A DNA stretch of 24,000 nucleotides from Serratia bockelmannii (GCF_008011855.1 NZ_VOUX01000024.1:46160-70159); one strand, 5' to 3'. Positions 4,640 through 21,258 are shown, counted from the first letter of the stretch. Numbers and translations are program-made. Notes: a model not told the origin generated them from the sequence alone.

Positions 4640-4655
4640 CTGTATATATATACAG
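4640..4655. promoter_or_regulatory. LexA (SOS) box upstream of umuDC
   Basis: CTGTATATATATACAG is a perfect palindrome and an exact match to the enterobacterial consensus CTGT-N8-ACAG. It lies 17 nt upstream of the umuD ATG. Confidence 0.88.
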
Positions 4656-10506: not shown

Positions 10507-12756
10507 TTAACGGCTTCTACTGATCGACTGTTCGACCTGTTTAACCTGTTCCGCGAACTTGCCGGCCTGCTTGATGTGTTCAATACGCGCTAGCACTTTC
10601 TGAGTCTCGCCCAGATATTCAGTCATATTAGTCAGTGGCAGCGCTTGATAATACCCATGCGCGCTACTGAAGCCATGATACCGGAGCTGCAGCAGCAGGC
10701 TCAGAAAAGCCTCATCCTTCTTGACTTGGCGATCGACCCATTTCCGTACTGCCTGGATCCCGCTAATATCACGCCATGCCCAGATATATCTATTCAGCAG
10801 GGGAAAGGCCGCCAACTGTTTGGTGATGGCCGGGCTGTTCAGTCTCTTCCCCATGGTTTTCTGTAAGATGACGACGTTACTCCGCTCCATCCACTCTTCC
10901 AGCTGATGGCCCGTTCTGTCTCCGACTATCCCATGTTGCCACAGCAGGTGACGGACATACTCAGCGCCCCAGTACCAGGCTTTCCCAAGCTGGAGTTGCG
11001 CAGTCAGGAACTTATTGGTAGATGTGACATCCTCACGTAGCATTCGTTGGATTAGCCGATCGGCCACGCTGTAGGTATCCAGGTCCTGCAGCTCAAACCA
11101 CTCGTTGTCTTGCCGATAGCGTTTCACCATGTCATCCCCGTTGTCGAAGAAGAACTGCAGCAGACCCTGGCACTCGGCCAGCGTTCTGGAATCAATCTGG
11201 GGGGATGTTAGCTCGGCCAGCATGTGCTCAAACCAGGTGCGGGAAGATAAGTTCTTTTTTCTCTGGATATGACCGAGCAGGCGTTGTGCCAGTTCCTGCT
11301 GCTTTTCAGGCTGGTCATGCTGGCCGGCGAGCGCGAAGATTTGGTCAAAATCTTCCGGTAACAGGATATTTTGTGGCGCGCAGAAGGCGAAGTAGTAACG
11401 CCAGTATGCCTGGCTGCCAAGCCGCTTCCCTGCTGTGAGCCAAGCACTTTCCTGCGGACCGGTGCTTACAAAGAGTTTATCGGGATGCACTGTCAGTCCA
11501 TCTAAGATCCCCGGGACCCATTCACTCAGCTCCGTGATGGAATGCGCTTTGGCCGGGAAATACCGCATCAGGTGTTGCTTAAGGTTGTCTGTCAGGACTT
11601 TCTGCTCCTCTTTACTGACATGGCCATCTCCGGTCTGCACCACGTTCCGTTCCGACAGGTATTCTTCCACCCAGTCATACAGACCCGAATTTGTCGTGCG
11701 GAGCAGCTGCAGGAAGCACAGATCGGGGAAATACACATAGTCCCGTATGCCCGCATAACGGAACCGTAGTGCATTTAGAACGGTCTGGACTTCCCGGGGC
11801 GATTTCAGCATGGCGCCATAAATATTCGCGACTGCCGTCAGGTCATCCAGTATGCCCTTCTCCGGGGGAGATTTATTCACCGTTTGGTATAACTCAATGG
11901 CATCATCACGAAATTGCTGGCGCAGCGCAAAGGATTCCGGGCGCGGCAGTCCGAATGAGATCTGGACAATTTTCTGCAGGTACAGGCTCCCGTCGGTGAC
12001 GCCCAGCCCCTGGCTGATGGCCTGTGACAGCACCGCCTTGTCATAACAGAGCAGGTAGCGGAAGCGGGGAAAATCCGCGACCGACTTCACCAGTCGGATC
12101 ACCTCCACGGCCTGGGCCGGTTCGAGGCGATCGAGATCGTCGAGCAGGATAATGAAGCTCAGATCCAGCTCTTCGATTTTCTGAGCAATCTCGGCGCGCA
12201 TGTCGGCCGTGGTTTTTTCCTTTTCTTTCAGCCAGTGCGAGTCTGCCACGGCGTTCAGTGCGCCGCTGGCATCGGGGACACCGGGAATGACCGCGGCGAT
12301 CTGAGCGACAGGCGACAGATTCCGGGCGGTGGCCCGGGTGTAGTCCATCAGCGTCTTGGCGGTACCGGTCAGCGCTTTTTTCTTTTTGAGGGCTGCCCGT
12401 TCCTTCGCTGAAAGCCGACGTTCTTCTTCCTCGGCAATGATGCCAGCTACCGGAAGCAGTAAGGACGCCACCAGAGGCGTATCACTGCCATCGAGCCAGG
12501 GGGAAATATTCAGCACGAAGGTTCGCGCTTCCTGTTGTTTATCCAGCGCCGTGCGCAGCAGATTAAGGAGGCTGGTTTTCCCCGTCCCCCAGGCGCCTTC
12601 GATACCGATCACGGCACTGCCCTCCCGGCCGATCTCCTTAATGGCGCGGGCCAACTCGGTGGCAATGTGGGTGAAACCATAGCGGTCTTCGTCGTTATTG
12701 CGGATGGCGCGATCGGGATGTTGCCCCTGGCGGTTTTCTTGCGGTGAATGCGTCAT
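10507..12756 (-). CDS. KAP-family P-loop NTPase (749 aa)
   Basis: It has the N-terminal DRYGF motif, Walker A IGIEGAWGTGKTSLLNLL, Walker B FIILLDDLDRLEP about 150 aa later, and the long helical C-terminal region typical of KAP NTPases. The segments in the inter-Walker insert (PLVASLLLPVAGIIA and VAQIAAVIPGV) are too short or too polar to call transmembrane helices with confidence. Confidence 0.85.
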   Translation of the reverse strand: MTHSPQENRQGQHPDRAIRNNDEDRYGFTHIATELARAIKEIGREGSAVIGIEGAWGTGKTSLLNLLRTALDKQQEARTFVLNISPWLDGSDTPLVASLLLPVAGIIAEEEERRLSAKERAALKKKKALTGTAKTLMDYTRATARNLSPVAQIAAVIPGVPDASGALNAVADSHWLKEKEKTTADMRAEIAQKIEELDLSFIILLDDLDRLEPAQAVEVIRLVKSVADFPRFRYLLCYDKAVLSQAISQGLGVTDGSLYLQKIVQISFGLPRPESFALRQQFRDDAIELYQTVNKSPPEKGILDDLTAVANIYGAMLKSPREVQTVLNALRFRYAGIRDYVYFPDLCFLQLLRTTNSGLYDWVEEYLSERNVVQTGDGHVSKEEQKVLTDNLKQHLMRYFPAKAHSITELSEWVPGILDGLTVHPDKLFVSTGPQESAWLTAGKRLGSQAYWRYYFAFCAPQNILLPEDFDQIFALAGQHDQPEKQQELAQRLLGHIQRKKNLSSRTWFEHMLAELTSPQIDSRTLAECQGLLQFFFDNGDDMVKRYRQDNEWFELQDLDTYSVADRLIQRMLREDVTSTNKFLTAQLQLGKAWYWGAEYVRHLLWQHGIVGDRTGHQLEEWMERSNVVILQKTMGKRLNSPAITKQLAAFPLLNRYIWAWRDISGIQAVRKWVDRQVKKDEAFLSLLLQLRYHGFSSAHGYYQALPLTNMTEYLGETQKVLARIEHIKQAGKFAEQVKQVEQSISRSR

Positions 12757-12758
12757 GG

Positions 12759-13829
12759 TTACAGATCCCCGTACAGTGCGGCGAGCTCGGCCAGCGCCGC
12801 GGCTGTGGACGGGTGCTCCAGCTGCGCCAGCAGCTCGGCCTCGAGCGCGGTGAAGGTGTCCGGCGCCAGCCGCAGCCGCAAATTCGGCAGCACCAGACCG
12901 ATGTCGCCGCTCTCCGGCACATGCAGCGAGACATGCCGCCCCTGATAGCTGCGGGTGCGATCGCCGTCCTGACGCGCGCGCAGCAGGCGGCGCAGTTCGG
13001 CGAACACCGGCCAGCCGAAGGTCGACTGGAAGACCGCGCCGCTGATGTGCAGGGACAGGAACGGCGGCAGTCCGTCGTCGGCGCCCGGATAGGCGCCCTG
13101 ACCGGCGACGATCTCCACCGTGGCGCTGAGCTCGCCGGCGGCGGCGATCAGCTGCTGGCGCTCCACGAAGGGCACGGTCAGCGCCAGGTACTCGGCCAGC
13201 GCCGGATCGTCGGCGCGCTGCGCGGCGACCGCCAGCGGGAAGATCGCCCGCAGCCGCACCGGGGTGCAGGCGCGGGCCAGCGCCTCGTCGCTGAAGTCAT
13301 CGAGGTTCAGCACGCCGCTGGCCAGCGGTCGGGCGAAGAACTCGGCGCTGCCGGCCGGCGGGGTGCATGTGGCCGTAAAGCGGTCACGCAGCGCCTGCAG
13401 CCAGTCCTCGCCGCGCAGGCCGAAGGTGCGCCGGTAATAGTGGGGATCGACATCGAGCCCGCCGCCCACCGCCGTCTCCAGCAGCGCATCGGTGATCAGC
13501 AGCAGCGCGGACAGCGGCGCCCGGTTGACCGGCCCGCGGCCATCGCGATAGGCGATCTGCGCCTGGCTGAACAGCCAGCGCAGTTCGGCGCGGCTCAGCG
13601 CCTGGCCGTCGACGGTTTCCGCGCGCACGACCTTGCGGTACAGCTGGCCCAGGGTGGTGTACGGCGCCGCGCAGAGCGCGCGATATTCGTCGCCGGCGAC
13701 CGAAGTGGCCAGCGTTTGCTGCAGCAGACGTTCTGCCAGGGTGTTGACCGGCACGGCTTCGGCGGCGGCGCGGTTTTTCAGGGCGGCGATCAGGGATTTC
13801 GGAAAGCGGAGGTTCAGCTGGCTGAGCAT
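12759..13829 (-). CDS. 356-aa protein with a ribbon-helix-helix-like N-terminus; the rest is unassigned (intact copy of a gene repeated three times)
   Basis: SD AGGA with a 6-nt spacer. The N-terminus MLSQLNLRFPKSLIAALKNRAAAEAVPVNTLAERLLQQ fits the beta-strand/helix/helix pattern of Arc/CopG-type RHH domains. The stop lies 2 nt before the KAP ATG. The gene is extremely GC-rich, so long mirror ORFs appear on the plus strand; their R/G/Q/A-rich products look non-biological. Confidence 0.7.
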   Translation of the reverse strand: MLSQLNLRFPKSLIAALKNRAAAEAVPVNTLAERLLQQTLATSVAGDEYRALCAAPYTTLGQLYRKVVRAETVDGQALSRAELRWLFSQAQIAYRDGRGPVNRAPLSALLLITDALLETAVGGGLDVDPHYYRRTFGLRGEDWLQALRDRFTATCTPPAGSAEFFARPLASGVLNLDDFSDEALARACTPVRLRAIFPLAVAAQRADDPALAEYLALTVPFVERQQLIAAAGELSATVEIVAGQGAYPGADDGLPPFLSLHISGAVFQSTFGWPVFAELRRLLRARQDGDRTRSYQGRHVSLHVPESGDIGLVLPNLRLRLAPDTFTALEAELLAQLEHPSTAAALAELAALYGDL

Positions 13830-14163: not shown

Positions 14164-14179
14164 CTGTGCATTTGTACAG
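14164..14179. promoter_or_regulatory. LexA (SOS) box of the colicin promoter
   Basis: CTGTGCATTTGTACAG fits CTGT-N8-ACAG exactly at the invariant positions. It lies 22 nt upstream of the colicin ATG. SOS control is the rule for colicin operons. Confidence 0.7.
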
Positions 14180-14201: not shown

Positions 14202-15944
14202 ATGCTTTTTAATGCAAATACCAAATTTACTTATCATTCACCGGATGATGGCGACAGCATGACGGTGACCGGCGACCGTCCCAGCCAACCTGGCCCTACT
14301 GGCCCCACAGGTAACGGGGGCGACAGCGGCGGTGGCAATACCGGCACGACCAATAAGTTGATCATGAAGCCCGGTGATGTGCATACCTCCCGCTATGGCA
14401 AGGTCATTATCAATGCCCAGGGTCAGCCAACGATGAACGGGGTCGTCATGAACTATGATAATTCATCGGTTGTGGATGATGGTGCGGGCGGTGCAACCCG
14501 CGTACTGAATTCCATCATCGATGCTGCCAAACCGCCGGCCAGCCAGAATTTTGGCAATAACGCCAGCATTTCGGATGGGCGCTATGCCGGCAAAAACCCG
14601 GCGGCGGACTATACCCTTCCGCTGGCTATCTTTACGGCGGTCCGTCGCGGCCAAATTCCACCTGGCTTTTGGCTTGACAACAACAAGGTCATGACCGAGA
14701 TCACGCAAAAATACGAGATCAACGGCGGCGGCAAAGGGAATGATCGCACCGGGTACAGAAAATCCAATGTGGCAGTGCCTGGCCTGACTAATGCTTATCA
14801 GCAGTGGCAAAAAGAACAGCAAGACGCCGCCAAGCGTAATGCCGAAGAAGAAGCCCGACGTAAGGCGGCCGAAGAGGCAAAACGTAAGGCGGAAGAAGAA
14901 GCCAAACGTAAAGCGGCAGAAGCGGAAGCCAAACGGCGCGCCGAGGAGGAAGCGAAACGCAAACAGGCTGAATGGGAAGCGACGCATAACATCGATGCGG
15001 CGAAAAAGAATGTTCAGCAGGCAGAAAGCCGGTTAAACACTGCGAAGCAAAAACGCGACGATCTTCAACGCAGGACCTACCGTACTCAGACCAGCCTCAG
15101 TTCCGCAATCATAATGCGAGACCGTACGAAAGAGGTGATCGATAAACATCTCCCAGGCCCTTCAATCATCCCTTCGGATCAAGAAAACAGACAACAACTC
15201 CTGGATGCGCTGAAACAGAGTGAGGAGGAGGTGAACAAACTGCGGGCCCAGGTCGATGCGGCAAACCGCGATCTCAACCTCGCCAATCAGGAGTTTGACA
15301 ATGCCTCGAAAAACCTGAATGCCGCCCGTGATAACCTGCAGCGGCTGGAGAAAGCGGAAGCGGATCGTAAGGCCGAAGAGGCCAGGAAGAAGGAAGAGGA
15401 GGCGATGAAAGACGCCATCAAGACGACGGCGGATTTTTACAAGGAACTGACGGAGAAATTTGGCGAGCAGTCCGCCAAGGTGGCCAAAGAGCTGGCCGAT
15501 GCGGCCAAGGGGAAAACGCTCAAAAATGCGGAGGAGGCGCTGAAGGCGTTTGAGAAGTACAAGGACGTGCTGAACAAGAAATTCAGCGTCGCCGATCGCG
15601 AAGCGGTGGCTAAAGCGCTGGAGTCGGTGCGCCGAGAGCATATCGCCCAGAATCTTGTCAAGTTTAGCAAGGCGTTCAACTACACGAGCAGAGCCATTGA
15701 TTTCTACGATGTCGTCATCGTCGAGCTGCCCAAAGCGATACGAACGCAGAACTTCAGACCTGTTTTCGTTAAAGTGGAGACACTTGCGGCAGGCGCGGCC
15801 GCCACGACGCTGACGGCGTTTGCCTTCAGCGTGATGTTGGGCACGCCACTGGGTCTTTTCGGTTTTGCCATTATCATGACTTTGGTCAGCGTGCTGGTTA
15901 ATGAAAAGCTCATGGAGAAGGTCAACAAAGCCGTCGGTATTTAA
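14202..15944 (+). CDS. Pore-forming bacteriocin (colicin/klebicin) with a colicin Ia/Ib-type channel domain
   Basis: The C-terminal ~180 aa (nt ~15405-15941) are colinear with the colicin Ia pore domain. Examples are KDAIKTTADFYKELTEKFGEQSAKVAKELA..GKTLKNAEEALKAFEKYKDVLNKKF versus Ia KDAINFTTEFLKSVSEKYGAKAEQLAREMA..GKKIRNVEEALKTYEKYRADINKKI. The hydrophobic hairpin AAGAAATTLTAFAFSVMLGTPLGLFGFAIIMTLVSVLV and the ending EKVNKAVGI (Ia: EKANKFWGI) also match. The N-terminus carries DDGDSMTVTG (aa 15-24), resembling the colicin B TonB box region YGDTMVVWP. A Gly-rich stretch follows. SD GGAG is present. Confidence 0.9.
   Translation: MLFNANTKFTYHSPDDGDSMTVTGDRPSQPGPTGPTGNGGDSGGGNTGTTNKLIMKPGDVHTSRYGKVIINAQGQPTMNGVVMNYDNSSVVDDGAGGATRVLNSIIDAAKPPASQNFGNNASISDGRYAGKNPAADYTLPLAIFTAVRRGQIPPGFWLDNNKVMTEITQKYEINGGGKGNDRTGYRKSNVAVPGLTNAYQQWQKEQQDAAKRNAEEEARRKAAEEAKRKAEEEAKRKAAEAEAKRRAEEEAKRKQAEWEATHNIDAAKKNVQQAESRLNTAKQKRDDLQRRTYRTQTSLSSAIIMRDRTKEVIDKHLPGPSIIPSDQENRQQLLDALKQSEEEVNKLRAQVDAANRDLNLANQEFDNASKNLNAARDNLQRLEKAEADRKAEEARKKEEEAMKDAIKTTADFYKELTEKFGEQSAKVAKELADAAKGKTLKNAEEALKAFEKYKDVLNKKFSVADREAVAKALESVRREHIAQNLVKFSKAFNYTSRAIDFYDVVIVELPKAIRTQNFRPVFVKVETLAAGAAATTLTAFAFSVMLGTPLGLFGFAIIMTLVSVLVNEKLMEKVNKAVGI
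14823..14969 (+). repeat. Imperfect 24-bp (8-codon) tandem repeats inside the colicin gene
   Basis: They encode DAAKRNAEEEARRKAAEEAKRKAEEEAKRKAAEAEAKRRAEEEAKRKQA, a highly charged Ala/Glu/Lys/Arg helix reminiscent of TolA domain II-type repeats. The repeats also create long shadow ORFs on the opposite strand. Confidence 0.8.
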
Positions 15945-15951
15945 CGTCAGC

Positions 15952-15971
15952 AAGGCCGCTTACGCGGCCTT
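15952..15971. terminator. Bidirectional rho-independent terminator between the colicin and immunity genes
   Basis: AAGGCCGC-TTAC-GCGGCCTT forms an 8-bp GC-rich stem. It is followed by TTTATTT on the plus strand. The hairpin overlaps the last codons of the converging immunity gene. Confidence 0.7.
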
Positions 15972-16298
15972 TTTATTTCTGAGGAACAGGGCAAGCAGAT
16001 ACAGGATGCCCAGCGGCAGGGCCATGATAAAACAGAACACATAATACAGAACCAGTAGCCCATTTTTGCCAATGGTATCGGCGAACAACCCGCGGTGCCA
16101 GAATGCTTCATTGGTGAAGCGCAGGGCGGCCGTTTCAATGCCCTTTTTGGCACAGGGATAGAGCAAAAAGCTCAGAAAGGCAATGACCAGCGCGAGAGGG
16201 ATGTTCACCCTGTCCTGGAAGGAATGGATGTAATAGAGCGCGCTAAAAAAGCAGGCTACTCCCCAAACCTGACTTTTCCAATAATACGCTTTGGTCAT
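15960..16298 (-). CDS. Colicin Ia/Ib-type immunity protein (inner-membrane)
   Basis: From the ATG at 16298 (SD GGGAGG) the product is 112 aa. LYPCAKKGIETAALRFTNEAFWHRGLFADTIGKNGLLVLYYVFCFIMALPLGILYLL aligns with colicin Ia immunity LYPVAKWYIEDTALKFTRPDFWNSGFFADTPGKMGLLAVYTFTVFILSLPLSMIYIL (from memory). Its orientation opposite to the colicin gene is usual for pore-former immunity genes. Confidence 0.85.
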   Translation of the reverse strand: MTKAYYWKSQVWGVACFFSALYYIHSFQDRVNIPLALVIAFLSFLLYPCAKKGIETAALRFTNEAFWHRGLFADTIGKNGLLVLYYVFCFIMALPLGILYLLALFLRNKKAA

Positions 16299-16365
16299 TC
16301 GCGCCTCCCTGGACATCGGCCTTTTTCATCTTTCGAACTTGCCATCATATCGGCTTTGCGGGTGA

Positions 16366-16737
16366 TCAGCGAAACGGAACCCCGTTGCCATAGACCGAGT
16401 TGGTTGGTTTGGTGTTGAAGTTAAAGGTAAATTCGCGATCCTTCACCGGTTGATCGCGTTCAAAGCGCCAGCTTTTCATGGCGGTCAACACCGCCTCGTC
16501 AAAGACACCGGCAGGCCTCGCCTGCACAATACGCACATGCCTGACCGTGCCGTCGTGTTCGATATCGTATTTCACCTTGACGACGCCACTGGTGCTTTTC
16601 GACAGGGCCTGTTCAGGATAAACAGGGGCGGTTTTGATGATGGCGTGGGGTGCCGGTGTGGCACCGAGCGCCAGCGCCGGCGTTAGGCACAGTAACAGCA
16701 GAGCAGAAAATGTAGATTTTCTCATGTCGTGATCCAT
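16366..16737 (-). CDS. Secreted protein consisting of a signal peptide plus a TonB C-terminal domain only
   Basis: MRKSTFSALLLLCLTPALALGA is a Sec-type signal peptide; the real start may be the ATG at 16725. The rest, APVYPEQALSKSTSGVVKVKYDIEHDGTVRHVRIVQARPAGVFDEAVLTAMKSWRFE, aligns with E. coli TonB [57 protein letters not shown]. There is no N-terminal membrane anchor and no Pro-rich spacer. Confidence 0.8.
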   Translation of the reverse strand: MDHDMRKSTFSALLLLCLTPALALGATPAPHAIIKTAPVYPEQALSKSTSGVVKVKYDIEHDGTVRHVRIVQARPAGVFDEAVLTAMKSWRFERDQPVKDREFTFNFNTKPTNSVYGNGVPFR

Positions 16738-16828
16738 TGGTTAAAAATAAGCGGTTACTACAAGATCGCGCCTCGGCGATCGCTCCTAACTATAGGGTAA
16801 ATCTGACAATATTGCGTTATTGCGGCGA

Positions 16829-17410
16829 TCACAGATCGCCGTACAGCGCGGCGAGATCGGCCAGCAGCGCCGCCGCCGGGTGCTCCAGCTGCGTCAGCAG
16901 ATAGGCCTCGAGCGGGGGTGAAAGTGTCCGGCGCCAGCCGCAGCCGCAAATTCGGCAACACCAGACCGAGGTCGCTGCTCTCCGGCACATATAGCGAGAC
17001 GTGCCGTCCCTGATAGCTGCGGGTGAGATCGCCGTGCTGATGCGCGCGCAGCAGGCGGCGAAGCTCGGCGAACACCGGCCAGCTGAAGGTCGACTGGAAG
17101 ACAGCGCCGCGGATATGCAGGGACAGGAACGGCGGCAGGCCGTCGTCGGTGCCCGGATAGGCGCCCTGCCCGGAGAGGATCTCCACCGCGGCACTGAGCT
17201 CGCCGGCGGCGGCGATCAGCTGCAGGCTTTCCACGAAGGGTGCGGTCAGCACCAGGTAATCGGCCATCGCCGGATCGTCGGCGCGCTGCGCAGCGACCGC
17301 CCGCGGGAAGGTCGCCCGCAGCCGCACCGGGGTGCAGGCTCGGGCCAGCGCCTCGTCGCTGAAGTCATCGAGGTTCAGCACGCCGCTGGCCAGCGGCCGG
17401 GCGAAGAGGG
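16829..17410 (-). pseudogene. 5'-truncated, frameshifted second copy of the GC-rich 356-aa gene (3' ~580 bp)
   Basis: It aligns base-for-base with 12759-13340, identical at roughly nine positions in ten by eye. An extra G near 16915 (GAGCGGGGGTGAAAG versus GAGCGCGGTGAAGG) splits the reading frame between track ORFs 16758..17381 and 16829..17194. There is also a one-codon deletion near the 3' end. Homology stops abruptly at ~17408, where AT-rich DNA begins. The RHH-encoding 5' part is missing. Confidence 0.85.
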
Positions 17411-17570
17411 GGCCGCTTGGAAAACGGAAAATATCCTACGTTAAGCCTTTTTTTGAGCGGTTATGACAGGCTGCTGCGAGCGAGGAACGGACATTGCTAA
17501 CAGCATTCTGTGTGAATCAACAGGGAGCAGGTCAGTATAATTATATAAGTCTTTTCCCTTAGATCTTGGG

Positions 17571-17625: not shown

Positions 17626-18570
17626 ATGGATTTAATTATGGAATGGAGATTTTTAGGTTCTATATCAGAGGCTAGGAAATCTGGCTGTAGTGGAGTTTAT
17701 CTTATTGTCCATAAAGGACTTTTCAATCGTGTGGTTTACGTTGGGGTAAGTTGTAATGTAGGTAGAAGGATAAACGAACATTACGACGGTTACCTGAGAG
17801 GAAACCGAACAATTTACGCCGCGGGTCACGATGATGATGTGTATCGCTTCATGTCAGCTTATAAAATTCATAACCACACTAAGCACTATCAAGCCTTGGC
17901 GAAGGATTATAAGATATGGGCATCTACAACATTATATTCTGATTTGCCGAAAAACATGCTAGCAAAAAACCAAACCTTTGATACTGACTGGCAGAGCATT
18001 GCATTAGAAAAATATATTCCTCAACTGGTAGTATGGGCCCTTCCAATGGCTGGTTACTGTTATTCAAATGCAAGCAGAATTGAAAGTGTAATTCAATCAA
18101 AGCTCATTAAATCTTTTTATTTGAGAGGGTTTTTTAATATAAAGCAACTAAGCATATTGGGTAAAATTGAATTCCCGCATATGGAAAAGGTCAAGGTTTT
18201 TATTATTGATGCACCTGATTTAGATCCGGCATCCCAACTTATTTTTAGTAACCTGTATAACAAGGAAACGGATGGAAATTTCTGTAAAGAGTTCCGTTCA
18301 CAGTTTAAAAACGAGATTTTTCAGAGGGAAAGCGAAATTCAGAGAAAGCGAACTATCAGGGAGCATAAGGTATCTCTTTATGAAAATTTTGGCAAACCCT
18401 GGACTTTAAAGGAAATGGAAAAACTTAGAGTCATGCTTGTCGATTTTGATTTGTCCCCGACAGAAATATCTGAATACCTAGGAAGAGAACCTCGCTCTAT
18501 CTCTAAAAAAATAAGCGAAAATGATAAAGTTACTAATTATAAATGGAGAGAGAGCGTCGGCTGGTTGTGA
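17626..18570 (+). CDS. GIY-YIG nuclease-domain protein with a C-terminal Myb/SANT-like helix-turn-helix
   Basis: The N-terminus GVYLIVHKGLFNRVVYVGVSCNVGRRINEH fits the GIY-x(9-11)-YIG...R...H/E motif. The C-terminus KPWTLKEMEKLRVMLVDFDLSPTEISEYLGREPRSISKK fits the W..E...L.....G....I pattern of Myb/SANT-like HTH domains. The gene is low in GC. The start could also be the ATG at 17638. Confidence 0.6.
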   Translation: MDLIMEWRFLGSISEARKSGCSGVYLIVHKGLFNRVVYVGVSCNVGRRINEHYDGYLRGNRTIYAAGHDDDVYRFMSAYKIHNHTKHYQALAKDYKIWASTTLYSDLPKNMLAKNQTFDTDWQSIALEKYIPQLVVWALPMAGYCYSNASRIESVIQSKLIKSFYLRGFFNIKQLSILGKIEFPHMEKVKVFIIDAPDLDPASQLIFSNLYNKETDGNFCKEFRSQFKNEIFQRESEIQRKRTIREHKVSLYENFGKPWTLKEMEKLRVMLVDFDLSPTEISEYLGREPRSISKKISENDKVTNYKWRESVGWL

Positions 18571-18636: not shown

Positions 18637-21258
18637 TCAGGTTTTACTGAGCCATGAGCCGTAAACTTCCCTACGCCGTTCGAAAGCTTCCCGTCCGCCC
18701 TCCATCACCGAAATAATGTGCTGTTGTACATGAGGAGCATCCACACCTCCACCGGCAGCCTGGATCCTGCCGCTGGCATATTCACAGGCACAGACATTCT
18801 CAGCGTCACCCAGAACCGGGATGTTGGCATTGTGAGTAGCAAAGATAAACTGGGTGCGGGGTTTCATCGTTCGGATGATTTTAATCACGTCGTCATAAAT
18901 CGTCTGATTGTCCAAGTCATCTTCGGGCTGATCGATGATCACCACATCATTATCCTGCTGGTTCAGGACAAACAGCATTAATGCGGAGGCGCGCTGACCC
19001 AGCGAGTGTTGTTCCAGTGGTTTGCCACGGAATTCAATGGTGTAGATATTCGGGATCTGCCAGACGATCAGCGATTCTATCTGCTGTTCCAGATACACTC
19101 CGAACGTCTCTGCAGAGCCGTTGATAATCCCCTGGAGTTTATCCCTGTTCAGCCAGAGTTCGCCAAAATCGCTGAAGCTGTCAGCTACGGTCTGGTAGGT
19201 ACTTTCCCGCAACCGGCTGCCAGTAAACGTTTCTTTCAGAACTGATTGCATGGCTTTTTTGTCGCTTGCAAAGGCCGGCACGATCTTCAGGGGCGAATCT
19301 GCCCGGTTGATTGTGGCCAGCACGGCTTCAATTTCGTTATACTCTTCCCTCCAGAGTTCAGCCAACCGGCTCAGCGCTTCTGTCAGGCTCTTCTCCTGTA
19401 ACGCTTGACTGGTTTCAGCCCGGGTTAACTCATCTATTTTCTGTTCCGCAGTTTCCAGCTCAGTCTTCAGCTTCAGAAAGTCGGCCGGATCGGCTTTTTC
19501 CACCCCGACCCGCCGCAACTCTTCTGCAAGGCCCCGCTCTATTTCGGCAAATTCCTCCGTCAGCGCCTGCTTTTTCTGCTGGAAGGCCTGCTGCTTAGTA
19601 TCGAGTTCTGTGAGGAGCTGGCGGGCGCCGTCGACGATGGTGTTCAGGGAGTTGAGATGGGTCGTGAAGCGATCATATCCCTCACGATAGTCATCGATCT
19701 CGGCCTGGTTATGCGCTGATTCATGTTTCTGCTCCTGCTTCAGCTCGTCCAGTGTCTCCCTGATATCGTCCTGCAGACTGTCCAGCGCTTGGGTTGCCTG
19801 GGCAGAGGTATTGCTGAGATAGCGCTCATCCCTCCCGAAGGTGGTCTGCAGTTCCAGTTTTTCTTCCATGCCATGCTGGGCATAAAAGCGCAGGCGGAAA
19901 TGCGCATCCGCCTTTTTTGCCTGCCATTCTGAGAGTGCTTCTCCCGATTTTTTCAGGCGACGAAGCAGGCGTAACCTGTCGAGCACGACTGTATTCTGCT
20001 GCCGGATTTTTTCTCGCACGGGAACCAGACGCTCACCGACCAGCTTTTCAATCAGATCGTGTTCAAACCCTGCGCCGGTATTGGACAGATCTTTCTGGCC
20101 AAAATACACTGGCTTGTGCAGAACCGTTTCCCGGAGCGCGACCCCGCGTCTGGCCTGGCCGTCAAAAATGACCTGCGGTTCCTGGCCGAAAATGCGGGTT
20201 ATCTGATATGCCCGCCCGAGACGGCACACGGCGTCGACGGTAATTTTCCCCCCGCTTTTGAGTAAATTACTTATCAGATTTTCTTTGTAGTCGCGGTCAG
20301 AGGCCTTCTCGCCAAACGGAATGTCCAGGGCATAGCGGATCCCTTCAAGTATGGAGGATTTTCCGCTGCCACGGATCCCAATCAGGGTGTTCAGCTCCGG
20401 AGATAATTTCACCACGGTTCCGCCGAGCGAACCGGCTCCCTCGAATGCTATCTGACGGATATGGCTGTGCATAAGGGCCGGTTTTTCCCCGCTGACGCGG
20501 TGCGGGAAATCTTGCAGAGCAAATCGGACAGCTTCAAAATTGTAATCACCCAGCTTCAGATAGCTGGCGACTTTTCTGGCGCCGATGTCATCCAGCGTTT
20601 TGGCATCGCATCCCTGAACTTCTGCAGGATAGCGCCTACCGAGAACGCCGTGAATTTTGACCCGCAGGTCGTGGGTCATCACCTTCTGAAATCCCATCAC
20701 GCGCCGGCGGACAAGCTCATTATCAAAAAGCTCCACGATCCGACCAGGGCTCAGTCCGCCCCATAATCCGTTAGGAGCTTCCACGTGGGCAAACACAATG
20801 AAGTAATCCCGTTCATACCGGTCAAGGCGCTGGATGGTCTGAGTGATATTTTCTGTTGAACGGGCATTTTCGTTCTCAAAATTATCAACGCCCGCAAACG
20901 TGGCCGTCAGGAAACTTTCAATATGATTCGTCTGCTGCGGGTTGATAAACCAGTCATCGGCAAACACCACAAGCGTGTGCACGCCGGCCTGACCATCATT
21001 AACAGACAGTTCCACGCCGGGAAGCAGTTCAGTGCCTTCGCGGCGCGCGGCTTTGCGTAATGCCTTAAACTCTCCGGGATCGAATTTATTGTGGTTGGTG
21101 ATCACGCCTACTCCCACTCCAGCCGCTTTTAGGGCACAGACGTAGTCGCGAATATATCTGTCGGGTTCCCCGGCATAGCGAAATTCTTTATCTGCACGGG
21201 TATGAAGATGAAAATCCACCTTGACCCAGCAGGATCCATTCTCAAATACGGGATACAT
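18637..21258 (-). CDS. PHP phosphoesterase domain fused to an SMC/RecF-like ABC ATPase with a long coiled-coil insert (PplA-type architecture)
   Basis: The PHP motifs appear in order: VDFHLHTRAD, ITNHN, GVELS, HTLVVF, FAHVE. Walker A is at aa ~295-301 (IGIRGSGKSSILEGIRYAL). About 400 aa of heptad-rich Q/E/L/R sequence follow. Next come SLGQRASALMLF, Walker B VVIIDQPEDDLD and the H-loop FATHNANIPV. Confidence 0.8.
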   Translation of the reverse strand: MYPVFENGSCWVKVDFHLHTRADKEFRYAGEPDRYIRDYVCALKAAGVGVGVITNHNKFDPGEFKALRKAARREGTELLPGVELSVNDGQAGVHTLVVFADDWFINPQQTNHIESFLTATFAGVDNFENENARSTENITQTIQRLDRYERDYFIVFAHVEAPNGLWGGLSPGRIVELFDNELVRRRVMGFQKVMTHDLRVKIHGVLGRRYPAEVQGCDAKTLDDIGARKVASYLKLGDYNFEAVRFALQDFPHRVSGEKPALMHSHIRQIAFEGAGSLGGTVVKLSPELNTLIGIRGSGKSSILEGIRYALDIPFGEKASDRDYKENLISNLLKSGGKITVDAVCRLGRAYQITRIFGQEPQVIFDGQARRGVALRETVLHKPVYFGQKDLSNTGAGFEHDLIEKLVGERLVPVREKIRQQNTVVLDRLRLLRRLKKSGEALSEWQAKKADAHFRLRFYAQHGMEEKLELQTTFGRDERYLSNTSAQATQALDSLQDDIRETLDELKQEQKHESAHNQAEIDDYREGYDRFTTHLNSLNTIVDGARQLLTELDTKQQAFQQKKQALTEEFAEIERGLAEELRRVGVEKADPADFLKLKTELETAEQKIDELTRAETSQALQEKSLTEALSRLAELWREEYNEIEAVLATINRADSPLKIVPAFASDKKAMQSVLKETFTGSRLRESTYQTVADSFSDFGELWLNRDKLQGIINGSAETFGVYLEQQIESLIVWQIPNIYTIEFRGKPLEQHSLGQRASALMLFVLNQQDNDVVIIDQPEDDLDNQTIYDDVIKIIRTMKPRTQFIFATHNANIPVLGDAENVCACEYASGRIQAAGGGVDAPHVQQHIISVMEGGREAFERRREVYGSWLSKT

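What the first reader, a model, noticed from the sequence alone, without database searches (positions are those of the whole stretch)
15960..16737. Signal-peptide TonB C-terminal-domain protein next to the immunity gene of a TonB-box colicin: possible periplasmic TonB decoy
Seen in the sequence: the 16366-16737 product is only a Sec signal peptide plus a TonB C-terminal domain, with no membrane anchor and no Pro-rich rod. It is co-oriented with the colicin Ia-type immunity gene and lies 50-70 nt upstream of it. The adjacent colicin carries a colicin B-like TonB box (GDSMTV, nt 14250-14267). Established knowledge (from memory): group B colicins need TonB-CTD/TonB-box contact for import. In E. 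coli experiments, artificially expressed periplasmic TonB C-terminal fragments inhibit TonB-dependent uptake. Inference: a naturally encoded soluble TonB-CTD could add a second, import-level layer of self-protection or cross-protection against TonB-dependent bacteriocins and TonB-dependent phages, on top of the membrane immunity protein. Alternative: because it sits directly downstream of the truncated copy of the 356-aa gene, it may originally have been that gene's partner rather than the colicin's.
Basis: partly seen in the sequence, partly recalled or inferred. Interest (0 to 1): 0.7.

Follow-up and report, generated by a model that had tools for sequence, protein, structure and literature searches.

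The report
Exported TonB-tail protein beside Serratia colicin

Summary
Window 16366-16725(-) encodes a 119-aa protein made of a Sec-type signal peptide plus a complete TonB C-terminal domain. It has no anchor and no Pro-rich rod. It lies 67 nt upstream of, and co-oriented with, an E1/Ia-type immunity gene (15960-16298), which converges on an SOS-regulated pore-forming colicin (14202-15944).

The order TonB_C-immunity-colicin is conserved with the same spacing in Serratia plasmids, the Db11 chromosome, S. liquefaciens and S. grimesii chromosomes, and an S. marcescens hotspot. The gene is therefore the colicin's partner, not the 356-aa (pifC-like) gene's. It is under purifying selection (dN/dS 0.12-0.31).

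The colicin is not a plain group B colicin. Its N-terminus is colicin A/K-like, including the TolA-binding region, but an invariant TonB-box-like DSMTVTGDRP replaces the TolB box. Relatives that keep a TolB box have no TonB_C gene.

Against a strict link: hundreds of S. marcescens chromosomes carry TonB_C alone at the hotspot, and a few carry the immunity gene alone.

Best reading, at about 0.4: an import-level decoy, a second and specificity-independent protection layer that is retained like an orphan immunity gene. No literature on this was found. Function is untested.

The parts
16366..16725 (-). Gene for a 119-aa exported, anchorless TonB C-terminal-domain protein. An alternative upstream ATG at 16737 would give 123 aa.
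   Evidence: ORF; PF03544 at 53.1 bits and TIGR01352 at 52.9 bits; TonB-CTD fold; dN/dS 0.12-0.31
16663..16725 (-). Predicted Sec signal peptide (aa 1-19/21): MRKSTFSALLLLCLTPALALG, with A-x-A / A-x-G cleavage motifs and no lipobox
   Evidence: Read from the sequence. It is the only hydrophobic segment and is conserved in all homologues, including a C13G variant. SignalP was not available.
16411..16641 (-). TonB_C domain proper (aa about 29-105), including the YP motif (VYPEQA) and the beta3-equivalent strand REFTFNFNT
   Evidence: Alignment to E. coli TonB 148-242; NCBIfam TonB models positions 157-236/242; AF2 secondary structure H38-41, E47-55, E60-70, H76-84, E87-89, E94-103
16369..16410 (-). 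Family-specific C-terminal tail KPTNSVYGNGVPFR (aa 106-119). It is nearly invariant, has no counterpart in TonB and is modelled with low confidence.
   Evidence: Alignments; pLDDT <50 for 106-113 and 115-119
16784..16814 (-). Upstream block conserved between plasmid and chromosomal copies (CAATATTGTCAGATTTaCCCTATAGTTAGG), containing a -10-like TATAGT. Probable promoter or operator of the TonB_C-immunity unit.
   Evidence: Alignment A1. The strict sigma-70 scan found nothing, so this is an inference.
15960..16298 (-). E1/Ia-type pore-forming-colicin immunity gene (112 aa from the SD-preceded ATG; the ORF extends to 16316)
   Evidence: PF03526 at 31.1 bits; about 39% identity to colicin Ia immunity proteins; hydrophobic segments; annotated as 112 aa in related records
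15952..15971 (.). GC-rich hairpin (AAGGCCGC-TTAC-GCGGCCTT) followed by T-rich tail TTTATTTCTG on the + strand, between the convergent colicin and immunity genes. Likely a shared terminator.
   Evidence: sequence
14202..15944 (+). 580-aa pore-forming colicin
   Evidence: PF01024 at 174.5 bits and PF22348 ColA_N at 46.8 bits; pore domain E=1e-63 to colicin Ib
14253..14267 (+). TonB-box-like motif DSMTV (aa 18-22), within the invariant DSMTVTGDRP. It occupies the position of colicin A's TolB box.
   Evidence: chance 38 in 100,000 shuffles
14367..14522 (+). Colicin A/K-like segment (aa 56-107), homologous to the colicin A fragment crystallised with TolA domain III
   Evidence: 3qdr_B E=5.5e-14 and 3iax_B E=4e-17; tblastn hits to caa and cka
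15381..15929 (+). Pore-forming domain (aa 394-576), Ia/Ib/E1 type
14164..14179 (.). LexA box CTGTGCATTTGTACAG, 23 nt before the colicin ATG. Conserved in all homologous loci.

Best explanation
The 119-aa protein is exported to the periplasm as a free TonB C-terminal domain. There it acts as a protective decoy against this colicin family, at the import step.

Proposed mechanism (all steps are inferences): when the unstructured N-terminus of an incoming colicin reaches the periplasm, its invariant DSMTVTGDRP segment pairs by beta-strand addition with the beta3 edge of the soluble domain instead of with energised, membrane-anchored TonB. The ColA-like segment behind it may also contribute. The colicin is then not pulled in.

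The target is the conserved translocation domain, not the pore. Protection would therefore not depend on receptor-domain type or immunity specificity. That would explain why the gene is co-transcribed with the immunity gene in producers and is kept alone, like an orphan immunity gene, in many non-producers.

Shown: the domain, its fold, the export signal, the linkage and the purifying selection. Inferred: export and signal cleavage, binding to the colicin, and protection.
For: 1. It is an intact TonB-CTD with a signal peptide and no anchor.
2. It lies 67 nt upstream of, and is co-oriented with, the immunity gene. No terminator-like site lies between them, and the pair shares a hairpin with the convergent colicin.
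3. Order and spacing are conserved in at least 6 contexts: plasmids with different flanks, a Db11 chromosomal element, S. liquefaciens chromosomes, S. grimesii at only 67% colicin identity, and the S. marcescens hotspot.
4. Every locus found by searching with the colicin itself carries TonB_C: 6 plasmids plus S. grimesii (versus 24).
5. The colicin family has an invariant TonB-box-like motif where colicin A relatives have a TolB box. Three TolB-box relatives have no TonB_C gene.
6. TonB_C does not co-diversify with the immunity gene or the pore hairpin, while the T domain is conserved.
7. dN/dS is 0.12-0.31.
8. Both TonB_C-only and immunity-only derivatives exist at the same chromosomal site. 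One locus keeps TonB_C and immunity next to a truncated colicin. This is the decay pattern typical of protective genes.
9. TonB boxes bind beta3 of the TonB CTD by beta-augmentation and occur in all TonB-dependent colicins (review PMC11658791). Periplasmic TonB fragments inhibit FecA/FhuA transport in E. coli (title of Howard et al. 2001, seen; details from memory).
Against: - There is no binding or phenotype data.
- The colicin's T domain is homologous to those of Tol-dependent colicins A and K, so TonB dependence is unproven.
- TonB_C alone is very common at the S. marcescens hotspot, next to unrelated cargo (reverse transcriptase + STM3845, toxin-antitoxin genes). One allele is listed in 243 blocks of the collection; of the 24 contigs read, 17 carried the reverse-transcriptase cargo. 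Its maintenance therefore does not need the colicin in cis.
- The plasmid copies share a pifC remnant and may descend from one capture, so the contexts are not fully independent.
- One other colicin with an N-terminal ETMTV motif plus a ColA-like segment has no TonB_C within its 4.4-kb contig.
- A general TonB decoy should impair iron uptake.
- Immunity proteins alone suffice for colicins Ia and E1.
- Gln160 of E. coli TonB aligns with Ala here.
Confidence: 0.4

Rival explanations
1. It is a resident Serratia periplasmic protein whose job has nothing to do with colicins, for example modulating TonB-dependent transport or binding another envelope partner. It merely borders a cargo hotspot. The colicin/immunity pair landed beside it, and the block was later captured onto plasmids as a hitch-hiker.
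For: - TonB_C-only loci are the commonest configuration in S. marcescens chromosomes. The breakpoint lies right after the stop codon and the downstream cargo varies.
- Identical TonB_C DNA occurs with and without the colicin (L082 versus L036/L078).
- Plasmid copies share a pifC 3' remnant, which suggests a single capture.
- Small exported TonB_C proteins also occur away from bacteriocins, on Klebsiella plasmids.
Against: - The gene is not a fixed flank. Immunity-only loci at the same site have lost it, leaving a roughly 20-nt 3' remnant.
- The triplet recurs in S. grimesii and S. liquefaciens at other chromosomal sites with the same order and spacing.
- Plasmid copies remain under purifying selection (dN/dS 0.15-0.27).
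- The family is confined to Serratia: the exhaustive search found no other cluster with E<1e-30.
Confidence: 0.27
2. It is an anti-phage superinfection-exclusion factor. A periplasmic TonB decoy blocks TonB-dependent phage entry, and it sits in a defence and competition island that happens to include the colicin.
For: - Lipoprotein TonB_C-only genes are recurrent cargo genes directly after the lysis cassette of lambdoid phages and prophages.
- The window neighbourhood is defence-rich: PifA at 966 bits, plus a Ppl/AAA-like ATPase.
- The hotspot cargo includes reverse-transcriptase, SIR2 and BrxR genes.
Against: - There is no PADLOC hit.
- The Serratia family is at most 42% identical to the phage proteins and lacks their lipobox.
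- Linkage is to the immunity/colicin pair, not to any defence gene.
- The two roles are not mutually exclusive.
Confidence: 0.12
3. The N-terminal hydrophobic segment is an uncleaved signal anchor. The protein would then be a membrane-tethered 'mini-TonB', or a periplasmic handle analogous to TolB, that the colicin exploits. In that case it would be an import or release cofactor, not a protector.
For: - The DSMTV motif sits exactly where colicin A's TolB box binds the soluble periplasmic protein TolB.
- The signal peptide could not be verified with a dedicated predictor.
Against: - Small residues at -3/-1 and a Pro at -5 fit cleavage.
- There is no His-containing TonB-type anchor motif and no spacer long enough to cross the periplasm.
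- A susceptibility factor would not be kept next to an immunity gene, nor retained as an orphan under purifying selection.
Confidence: 0.06

Closest known systems
C-terminal domain of TonB (E. coli TonB 150-239; PDB 1U07, 1XX3, 2GSK, 2GRX) and engineered periplasmic TonB fragments (Howard et al. 2001, J Bacteriol 183:5885)
   Same: Same domain family and fold. The engineered fragments were signal-peptide fusions without the anchor, and they inhibited FecA/FhuA-dependent transport (title; details from memory). That is the mode of action proposed here.
   Different: This one is naturally encoded, only about 36% identical to E. coli TonB CTD, carries a conserved 14-residue C-terminal tail, and is genetically linked to a colicin/immunity pair. 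Its inhibitory activity is untested.
Immunity proteins of pore-forming colicins (E1/Ia type, PF03526) and periplasmic immunity proteins of colicin M and pesticin (Cmi, Pim)
   Same: It is co-oriented with, and probably co-transcribed with, an immunity gene. It is retained as an orphan, as immunity genes are.
   Different: It has no sequence relation to these proteins; Pfam reports only TonB_C. The proposed target is the import step, not the toxic domain. The comparison with Cmi and Pim is from memory and was not tested.
Phage superinfection-exclusion lipoproteins Llp (T5) and Cor (phi80/N15/HK022)
   Same: These are small exported proteins encoded by mobile elements that shut a TonB-dependent entry route from inside the envelope (Llp: abstract of bioRxiv 10.64898/2026.03.26.714494; Cor from memory).
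   Different: They bind the receptor FhuA and are not TonB-like. This protein is a soluble TonB domain.
Prophage and phage TonB_C lipoproteins (PHROG 1267; phage 21 'TonB C-terminal domain protein', Stx1a phages, CP-933N)
   Same: Exported, anchorless, single TonB_C domain of about 110 aa carried on a mobile element.
   Different: They have a lipobox, sit after the lysis cassette, and are at most 42% identical. Their function is also unknown, and the PHROG label 'Rz-like spanin' looks positional.
FusB, the TonB homologue of Pectobacterium whose C-terminal domain binds the imported protein ferredoxin (PDB 7ZC8, 9HI3)
   Same: It is among the best structural matches. It is a precedent for a TonB-type CTD that directly binds an imported protein.
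   Different: FusB is a full, anchored energy transducer that promotes import. Here the domain is free and is proposed to block import.

Membership tests
TonB_C domain family (Pfam PF03544 / TIGR01352) | Profile score above the curated cut-off | tested here: met
   PF03544 at 53.1 bits versus 24.6; TIGR01352 at 52.9 versus 27.1
TonB_C domain family (Pfam PF03544 / TIGR01352) | TonB-CTD fold: short helix, then two strands, a helix and an edge strand | tested here: met
   AF2 core block pLDDT 73-91. Foldseek top hits are all TonB CTDs, with target-normalised TM-scores of 0.75-0.81. TolA domain III matches are far weaker.
Full-length TonB energy transducer (NCBIfam PRK10819 equivalogs) | Whole-protein score above the equivalog cut-off | tested here: not met
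   Best score 78.1 bits versus a cut-off of 265. Only model positions 157-236 of 242 are matched.
Full-length TonB energy transducer (NCBIfam PRK10819 equivalogs) | N-terminal transmembrane anchor and Pro-rich periplasmic spacer | tested here: not met
   119 aa. The single N-terminal hydrophobic stretch has signal-peptidase motifs. There are 9 scattered prolines and no repeats.
Pore-forming colicin immunity proteins (PF03526) | Profile match and multi-pass membrane protein | tested here: not met
   The TonB_C protein has no such hit. The neighbouring gene 15960-16298 is the member.
Prophage TonB_C lipoproteins (PHROG 1267) | Full-length profile match plus a lipobox (L-x-G/A-C) | tested here: not met
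   The match is partial: profile positions 43-116 of 119, E=9.5e-17. The sequence LLLLC has Leu at -1, and one allele has Gly in place of the Cys.
Group B (TonB-dependent) colicins: applies to the neighbouring colicin | N-terminal TonB box | tested here: inconclusive
   DSMTV at aa 18-22 fits D/E-T/S-hydrophobic-x-V. It is invariant in the family and rare by chance. The function of the motif was not tested.
Group B (TonB-dependent) colicins: applies to the neighbouring colicin | Killing requires TonB/ExbB/ExbD | not testable with these tools
   Needs tonB and tolA mutants of a sensitive strain.
Group A (Tol-dependent) colicins of the colicin A/K type: applies to the neighbouring colicin | TolA-binding segment homologous to ColA 53-107 | tested here: met
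   3qdr_B E=5.5e-14; PF22348 at 46.8 bits; tblastn hits to caa and cka
Group A (Tol-dependent) colicins of the colicin A/K type: applies to the neighbouring colicin | TolB box (DGxGW) and a lysis gene in the operon | tested here: not met
   DDGDSMTV replaces GDGTGWSSE. No lysis gene was found: the immunity gene converges directly on the colicin.

The most novel reading that the evidence does not exclude
Serratia colicin modules encode a natural, exported TonB C-terminal domain that protects cells by intercepting the colicin's N-terminal TonB-box segment in the periplasm. This would be the first import-level, specificity-independent 'immunity' for a colicin. The lipoprotein TonB_C genes carried by lambdoid prophages would be the phage-side version of the same trick. 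As a corollary, this colicin family would be a true Tol/Ton hybrid, combining a TonB box with a colicin A-type TolA-binding segment.
Probability: 0.33. Interest if true: 0.8.

Novelty: new variant of a known kind. Interest (0 to 1): 0.6.

Why it matters
Colicin self-protection is thought to act only on the toxic domain. A genetically linked periplasmic decoy would add a second layer, at the import step, that works regardless of pore or immunity specificity. It would also explain why the gene survives as an orphan.

It would show that the dominant-negative TonB fragments made in the laboratory have a natural counterpart. It would give a first hypothesis for the uncharacterised TonB_C lipoprotein genes of many E. 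coli and Salmonella prophages. It would also supply a natural TonB-box binder that could be used to probe or block TonB-dependent uptake.

The colicin itself blurs the group A / group B division. The module is present in the model strain S. marcescens Db11, so the idea can be tested directly.

Tried and rejected
- Promoter search: the strict sigma-70 scan found nothing upstream of TonB_C. A Fur-box scan of five upstream regions gave only background scores.
- Known defence families: PADLOC has no family for TonB_C or for the prophage homologue.
- '356-aa gene partner' idea: rejected. The 356-aa gene is the upstream partner of PifA, and many triplets lack it.
- 'Fixed core flank of a hotspot' idea: rejected, because immunity-only loci at the same site have lost TonB_C.
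- 'Recent copy of host TonB or HasB' idea: unlikely. No relative closer than about 46% identity exists outside the family, and the HasB CTD is a poor structural match.
- Wider collections: the viral-contig scan gave only one distant hit. The genome scan with the T domain gave only S. grimesii. Distant metagenome TonB_C hits had no colicin or immunity gene nearby.
- Literature: searches for a TonB-like protein in bacteriocin loci or prophages found nothing relevant. Howard et al. 2001 (PMC99666) is not held.

Full report
**What is in the window.** The window is from a Serratia marcescens plasmid; it is 98.7% identical to AP028474.1. The minus-strand ORF 16366-16737 most likely starts at the second ATG (16725). 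That gives 119 aa, the length annotated for homologues in RefSeq plasmids.

It matches Pfam TonB_C (53.1 bits, cut-off 24.6) and TIGR01352 (52.9 bits, cut-off 27.1). It covers only positions 157-236 of full-length TonB models, whose cut-offs it misses by far (78 versus 265 bits). It aligns to E. coli TonB 148-242, with about 36% identity over the core.

An AlphaFold2 model has a confident core (block pLDDT 73-91 for aa 40-104). Its best structural matches are all TonB C-terminal domains, including the chains bound to BtuB and FhuA (target-normalised TM-scores 0.75-0.81). TolA domain III and HasB are much poorer matches.

The N-terminus (MRK, a hydrophobic core, then ALALG-A) looks like a cleavable Sec signal without a lipobox. 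It is the only hydrophobic segment, and there is no Pro-rich spacer. No signal-peptide predictor was available, so export is inferred.

**The neighbours.** The next gene downstream on the same strand is an E1/Ia-type immunity gene (PF03526; nearest named relatives are colicin Ia immunity proteins at about 39%). Its SD-preceded start at 16298 leaves a 67-nt gap with no terminator-like site.

It converges on a 580-aa pore-forming colicin. The colicin's pore domain resembles colicins Ib and Ia (E=1e-63 and 2e-49). The two genes share a GC-rich hairpin at 15952-15971. A perfect LexA box lies 23 nt before the colicin start and is conserved in all homologous loci.

**The colicin is a hybrid, not a plain group B colicin.**
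- Residues 10-107 align with colicin A. Residues 56-107 align with the fragment crystallised with TolA domain III (3qdr_B, E=5.5e-14).
- The same segment occurs in colicin K and in other Serratia and Klebsiella bacteriocins.
- Those relatives have a canonical TolB box (G-DGT-WS-ERG) near the N-terminus. This family has DDGDSMTVTGDRP at that position.
- DSMTV fits the TonB-box pattern. It appears in 38 of 100,000 composition-preserving shuffles. It is invariant in every family member, including the 67%-identical S. grimesii colicin whose flanking residues differ.
- Whether import uses TonB, TolA or both cannot be decided here.

**Linkage: TonB_C is the colicin's partner.** The order TonB_C-immunity-colicin recurs with the same spacing in these settings:
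- plasmids with different flanks (umuDC/IS66, KfrA/VapBC, Abi_2);
- a chromosomal element of the model strain Db11;
- S. liquefaciens chromosomes, next to CDI/Rhs orphan toxins or next to a second, lipoprotein TonB_C gene;
- S. grimesii;
- an S. marcescens chromosomal hotspot between a LysR gene and a phytase-like gene.

All seven loci found by searching with the colicin itself carry TonB_C (versus 24). The 356-aa gene is the upstream partner of PifA (PADLOC, 966 bits).

The three TolB-box relatives examined have only colicin plus immunity. About 1,000 plasmid records carry an E1/Ia-type immunity homologue, but only the six Serratia ones carry this TonB_C family. The family is confined to Serratia: an exhaustive search of 1.8 billion representatives found no other cluster below E=1e-30.

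**Selection.** Pairwise dN/dS is 0.12-0.31 for TonB_C, including between plasmid copies. This is as low as, or lower than, the immunity gene's.

TonB_C does not co-vary with the immunity gene or the pore hairpin, which are unusually divergent in this window. The central receptor domain occurs in at least three types, while the T domain is conserved. This fits a partner of the conserved T domain, or of something outside the colicin.

**Evidence that cuts the other way.**
- At the S. marcescens hotspot the commonest configuration is TonB_C alone. The breakpoint lies just after its stop codon, and it is followed by unrelated cargo (reverse transcriptase + STM3845, SIR2, CbtA/CbeA, remnants of nuclease bacteriocins).
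- One such allele is listed in 243 blocks of the collection.
- Identical TonB_C DNA occurs with and without the colicin.
- The plasmid copies share a pifC remnant and may stem from one capture event.
- One other small colicin with an N-terminal ETMTV motif plus a ColA-like segment has no TonB_C within its 4.4-kb contig.

TonB_C is nevertheless not just a fixed flank. Other strains have the immunity gene alone at the same site, with only a roughly 20-nt 3' remnant of TonB_C. One strain keeps TonB_C and immunity beside a truncated colicin. Independent orphaning of both small genes is what is usually seen for protective genes.

[quoted passage not shown] Periplasmic TonB fragments inhibit FecA/FhuA transport in E. 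coli (Howard et al. 2001; title seen, paper not held, details from memory).

The best-supported reading is that the exported domain intercepts the colicin's N-terminus in the periplasm. This would give a specificity-independent second layer of protection. I put this at about 0.4.

The rivals are:
- a colicin-independent resident periplasmic protein that hitch-hiked (about 0.27);
- a TonB-decoy phage-exclusion factor, prompted by the prophage homologues (about 0.12, and not exclusive of the main reading);
- an import cofactor or anchored mini-TonB (about 0.06).

**Comparison with what is known.** It is a member of the TonB_C domain family. It is not a TonB, not a known immunity family, and not a member of the prophage lipoprotein family (see the membership table). 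It would work like the engineered periplasmic TonB fragments and, more loosely, like Llp and Cor.

Literature searches found no report of a TonB-like gene in a bacteriocin locus or of a function for the prophage homologues. A 2026 paper states that bacteriocin 28b is the only characterised S. marcescens bacteriocin.

**Verdict.** This is a real, conserved, selected gene and a new three-gene variant of the colicin module, with a plausible but untested decoy function. Interest is moderate to high. It is directly testable in Db11.

Noticed in passing
window 14202-14990 (colicin aa 1-260); L019 5001-5800; L028 1831-2547: The colicin translocation domain is a hybrid. A TonB-box-like motif (DSMTV; ETMTV in L028) sits where colicin A has its TolB box. 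It is followed by the colicin A/K-type TolA-binding segment. This does not fit the group A / group B division.
   Followed up: partly
L016 2430-2756; L018 4899-5231; L015 4938-5234; L017 4905-5240; phage records OL657228, MT225100, JQ347801: Anchorless TonB_C-only lipoproteins of about 110 aa are recurrent cargo genes directly after the lysis cassette of lambdoid phages and prophages (phage 21, Stx1a phages, CP-933N), and also occur on Klebsiella plasmids. PHROG 1267 labels them 'Rz-like spanin', which is probably a positional mis-annotation. No published function was found.
   Followed up: partly
L019 7942-8283; L085 and L088 2841-3170: S. grimesii and S. liquefaciens-group chromosomes carry a second exported TonB_C protein about 0.4-0.8 kb from the first. 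It is a lipoprotein and, in L019, lacks the YP motif. It lies next to a YcgJ-like gene.
   Followed up: no
L072-L082, L105-L109, L004-L013, L036 (S. marcescens chromosome between a LysR gene and a phytase-like gene): This is a chromosomal hotspot whose cargo alternates between strains. Seen here: this colicin module, reverse transcriptase + STM3845 + BrxR, a SIR2 gene, CbtA/CbeA, a colicin D-like tRNase bacteriocin with a PF09204 immunity gene, and an 843-aa cloacin/pyocin-S-type bacteriocin.
   Followed up: partly
window 10507-13829 and 16758-17381: PifA (phage T7 exclusion; PADLOC 966 bits) sits with its 356-aa upstream partner. A truncated second copy of that partner (C-terminal 207 aa) lies on the other side of the colicin module. 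In other plasmids and in Db11 the order is 356-aa gene, PifA, 115-aa remnant, TonB_C, immunity, colicin.
   Followed up: partly
window 15960-16298 and 15660-15944: This window's immunity protein (about 81% identity to all other family members) and the colicin's C-terminal hydrophobic hairpin are both unusually divergent, while TonB_C is 94-95% identical to other plasmid copies. This looks like a new immunity specificity type. The central receptor domain (aa about 265-395) occurs in at least three types.
   Followed up: partly
window 16369-16410: The 14-residue C-terminal tail KPTNSVYGNGVPFR is almost invariant across the family (NTIFGNGIPFR in S. grimesii). It has no counterpart in TonB and is not confidently modelled. 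Its role is unexplained.
   Followed up: no
window 4640-4655 and 17508-17523: There are two further perfect CTGT-N8-ACAG LexA-type boxes. One is fully palindromic (CTGTATATATATACAG). The other lies about 100 nt upstream of a GIY-YIG-domain gene (17626-18570).
   Followed up: no
window 18637-21258: An 873-aa ATPase with an N-terminal PHP-like region matches PADLOC Ppl (125.9 bits) and AbiEii/AAA_21. It is another probable defence gene next to the module.
   Followed up: no
L001 7950-8710 (NZ_CP053380.1): In this plasmid record TonB_C, the immunity gene and PifA are each split by frameshifts while the colicin is intact. This is more likely assembly error than real decay.
   Followed up: no
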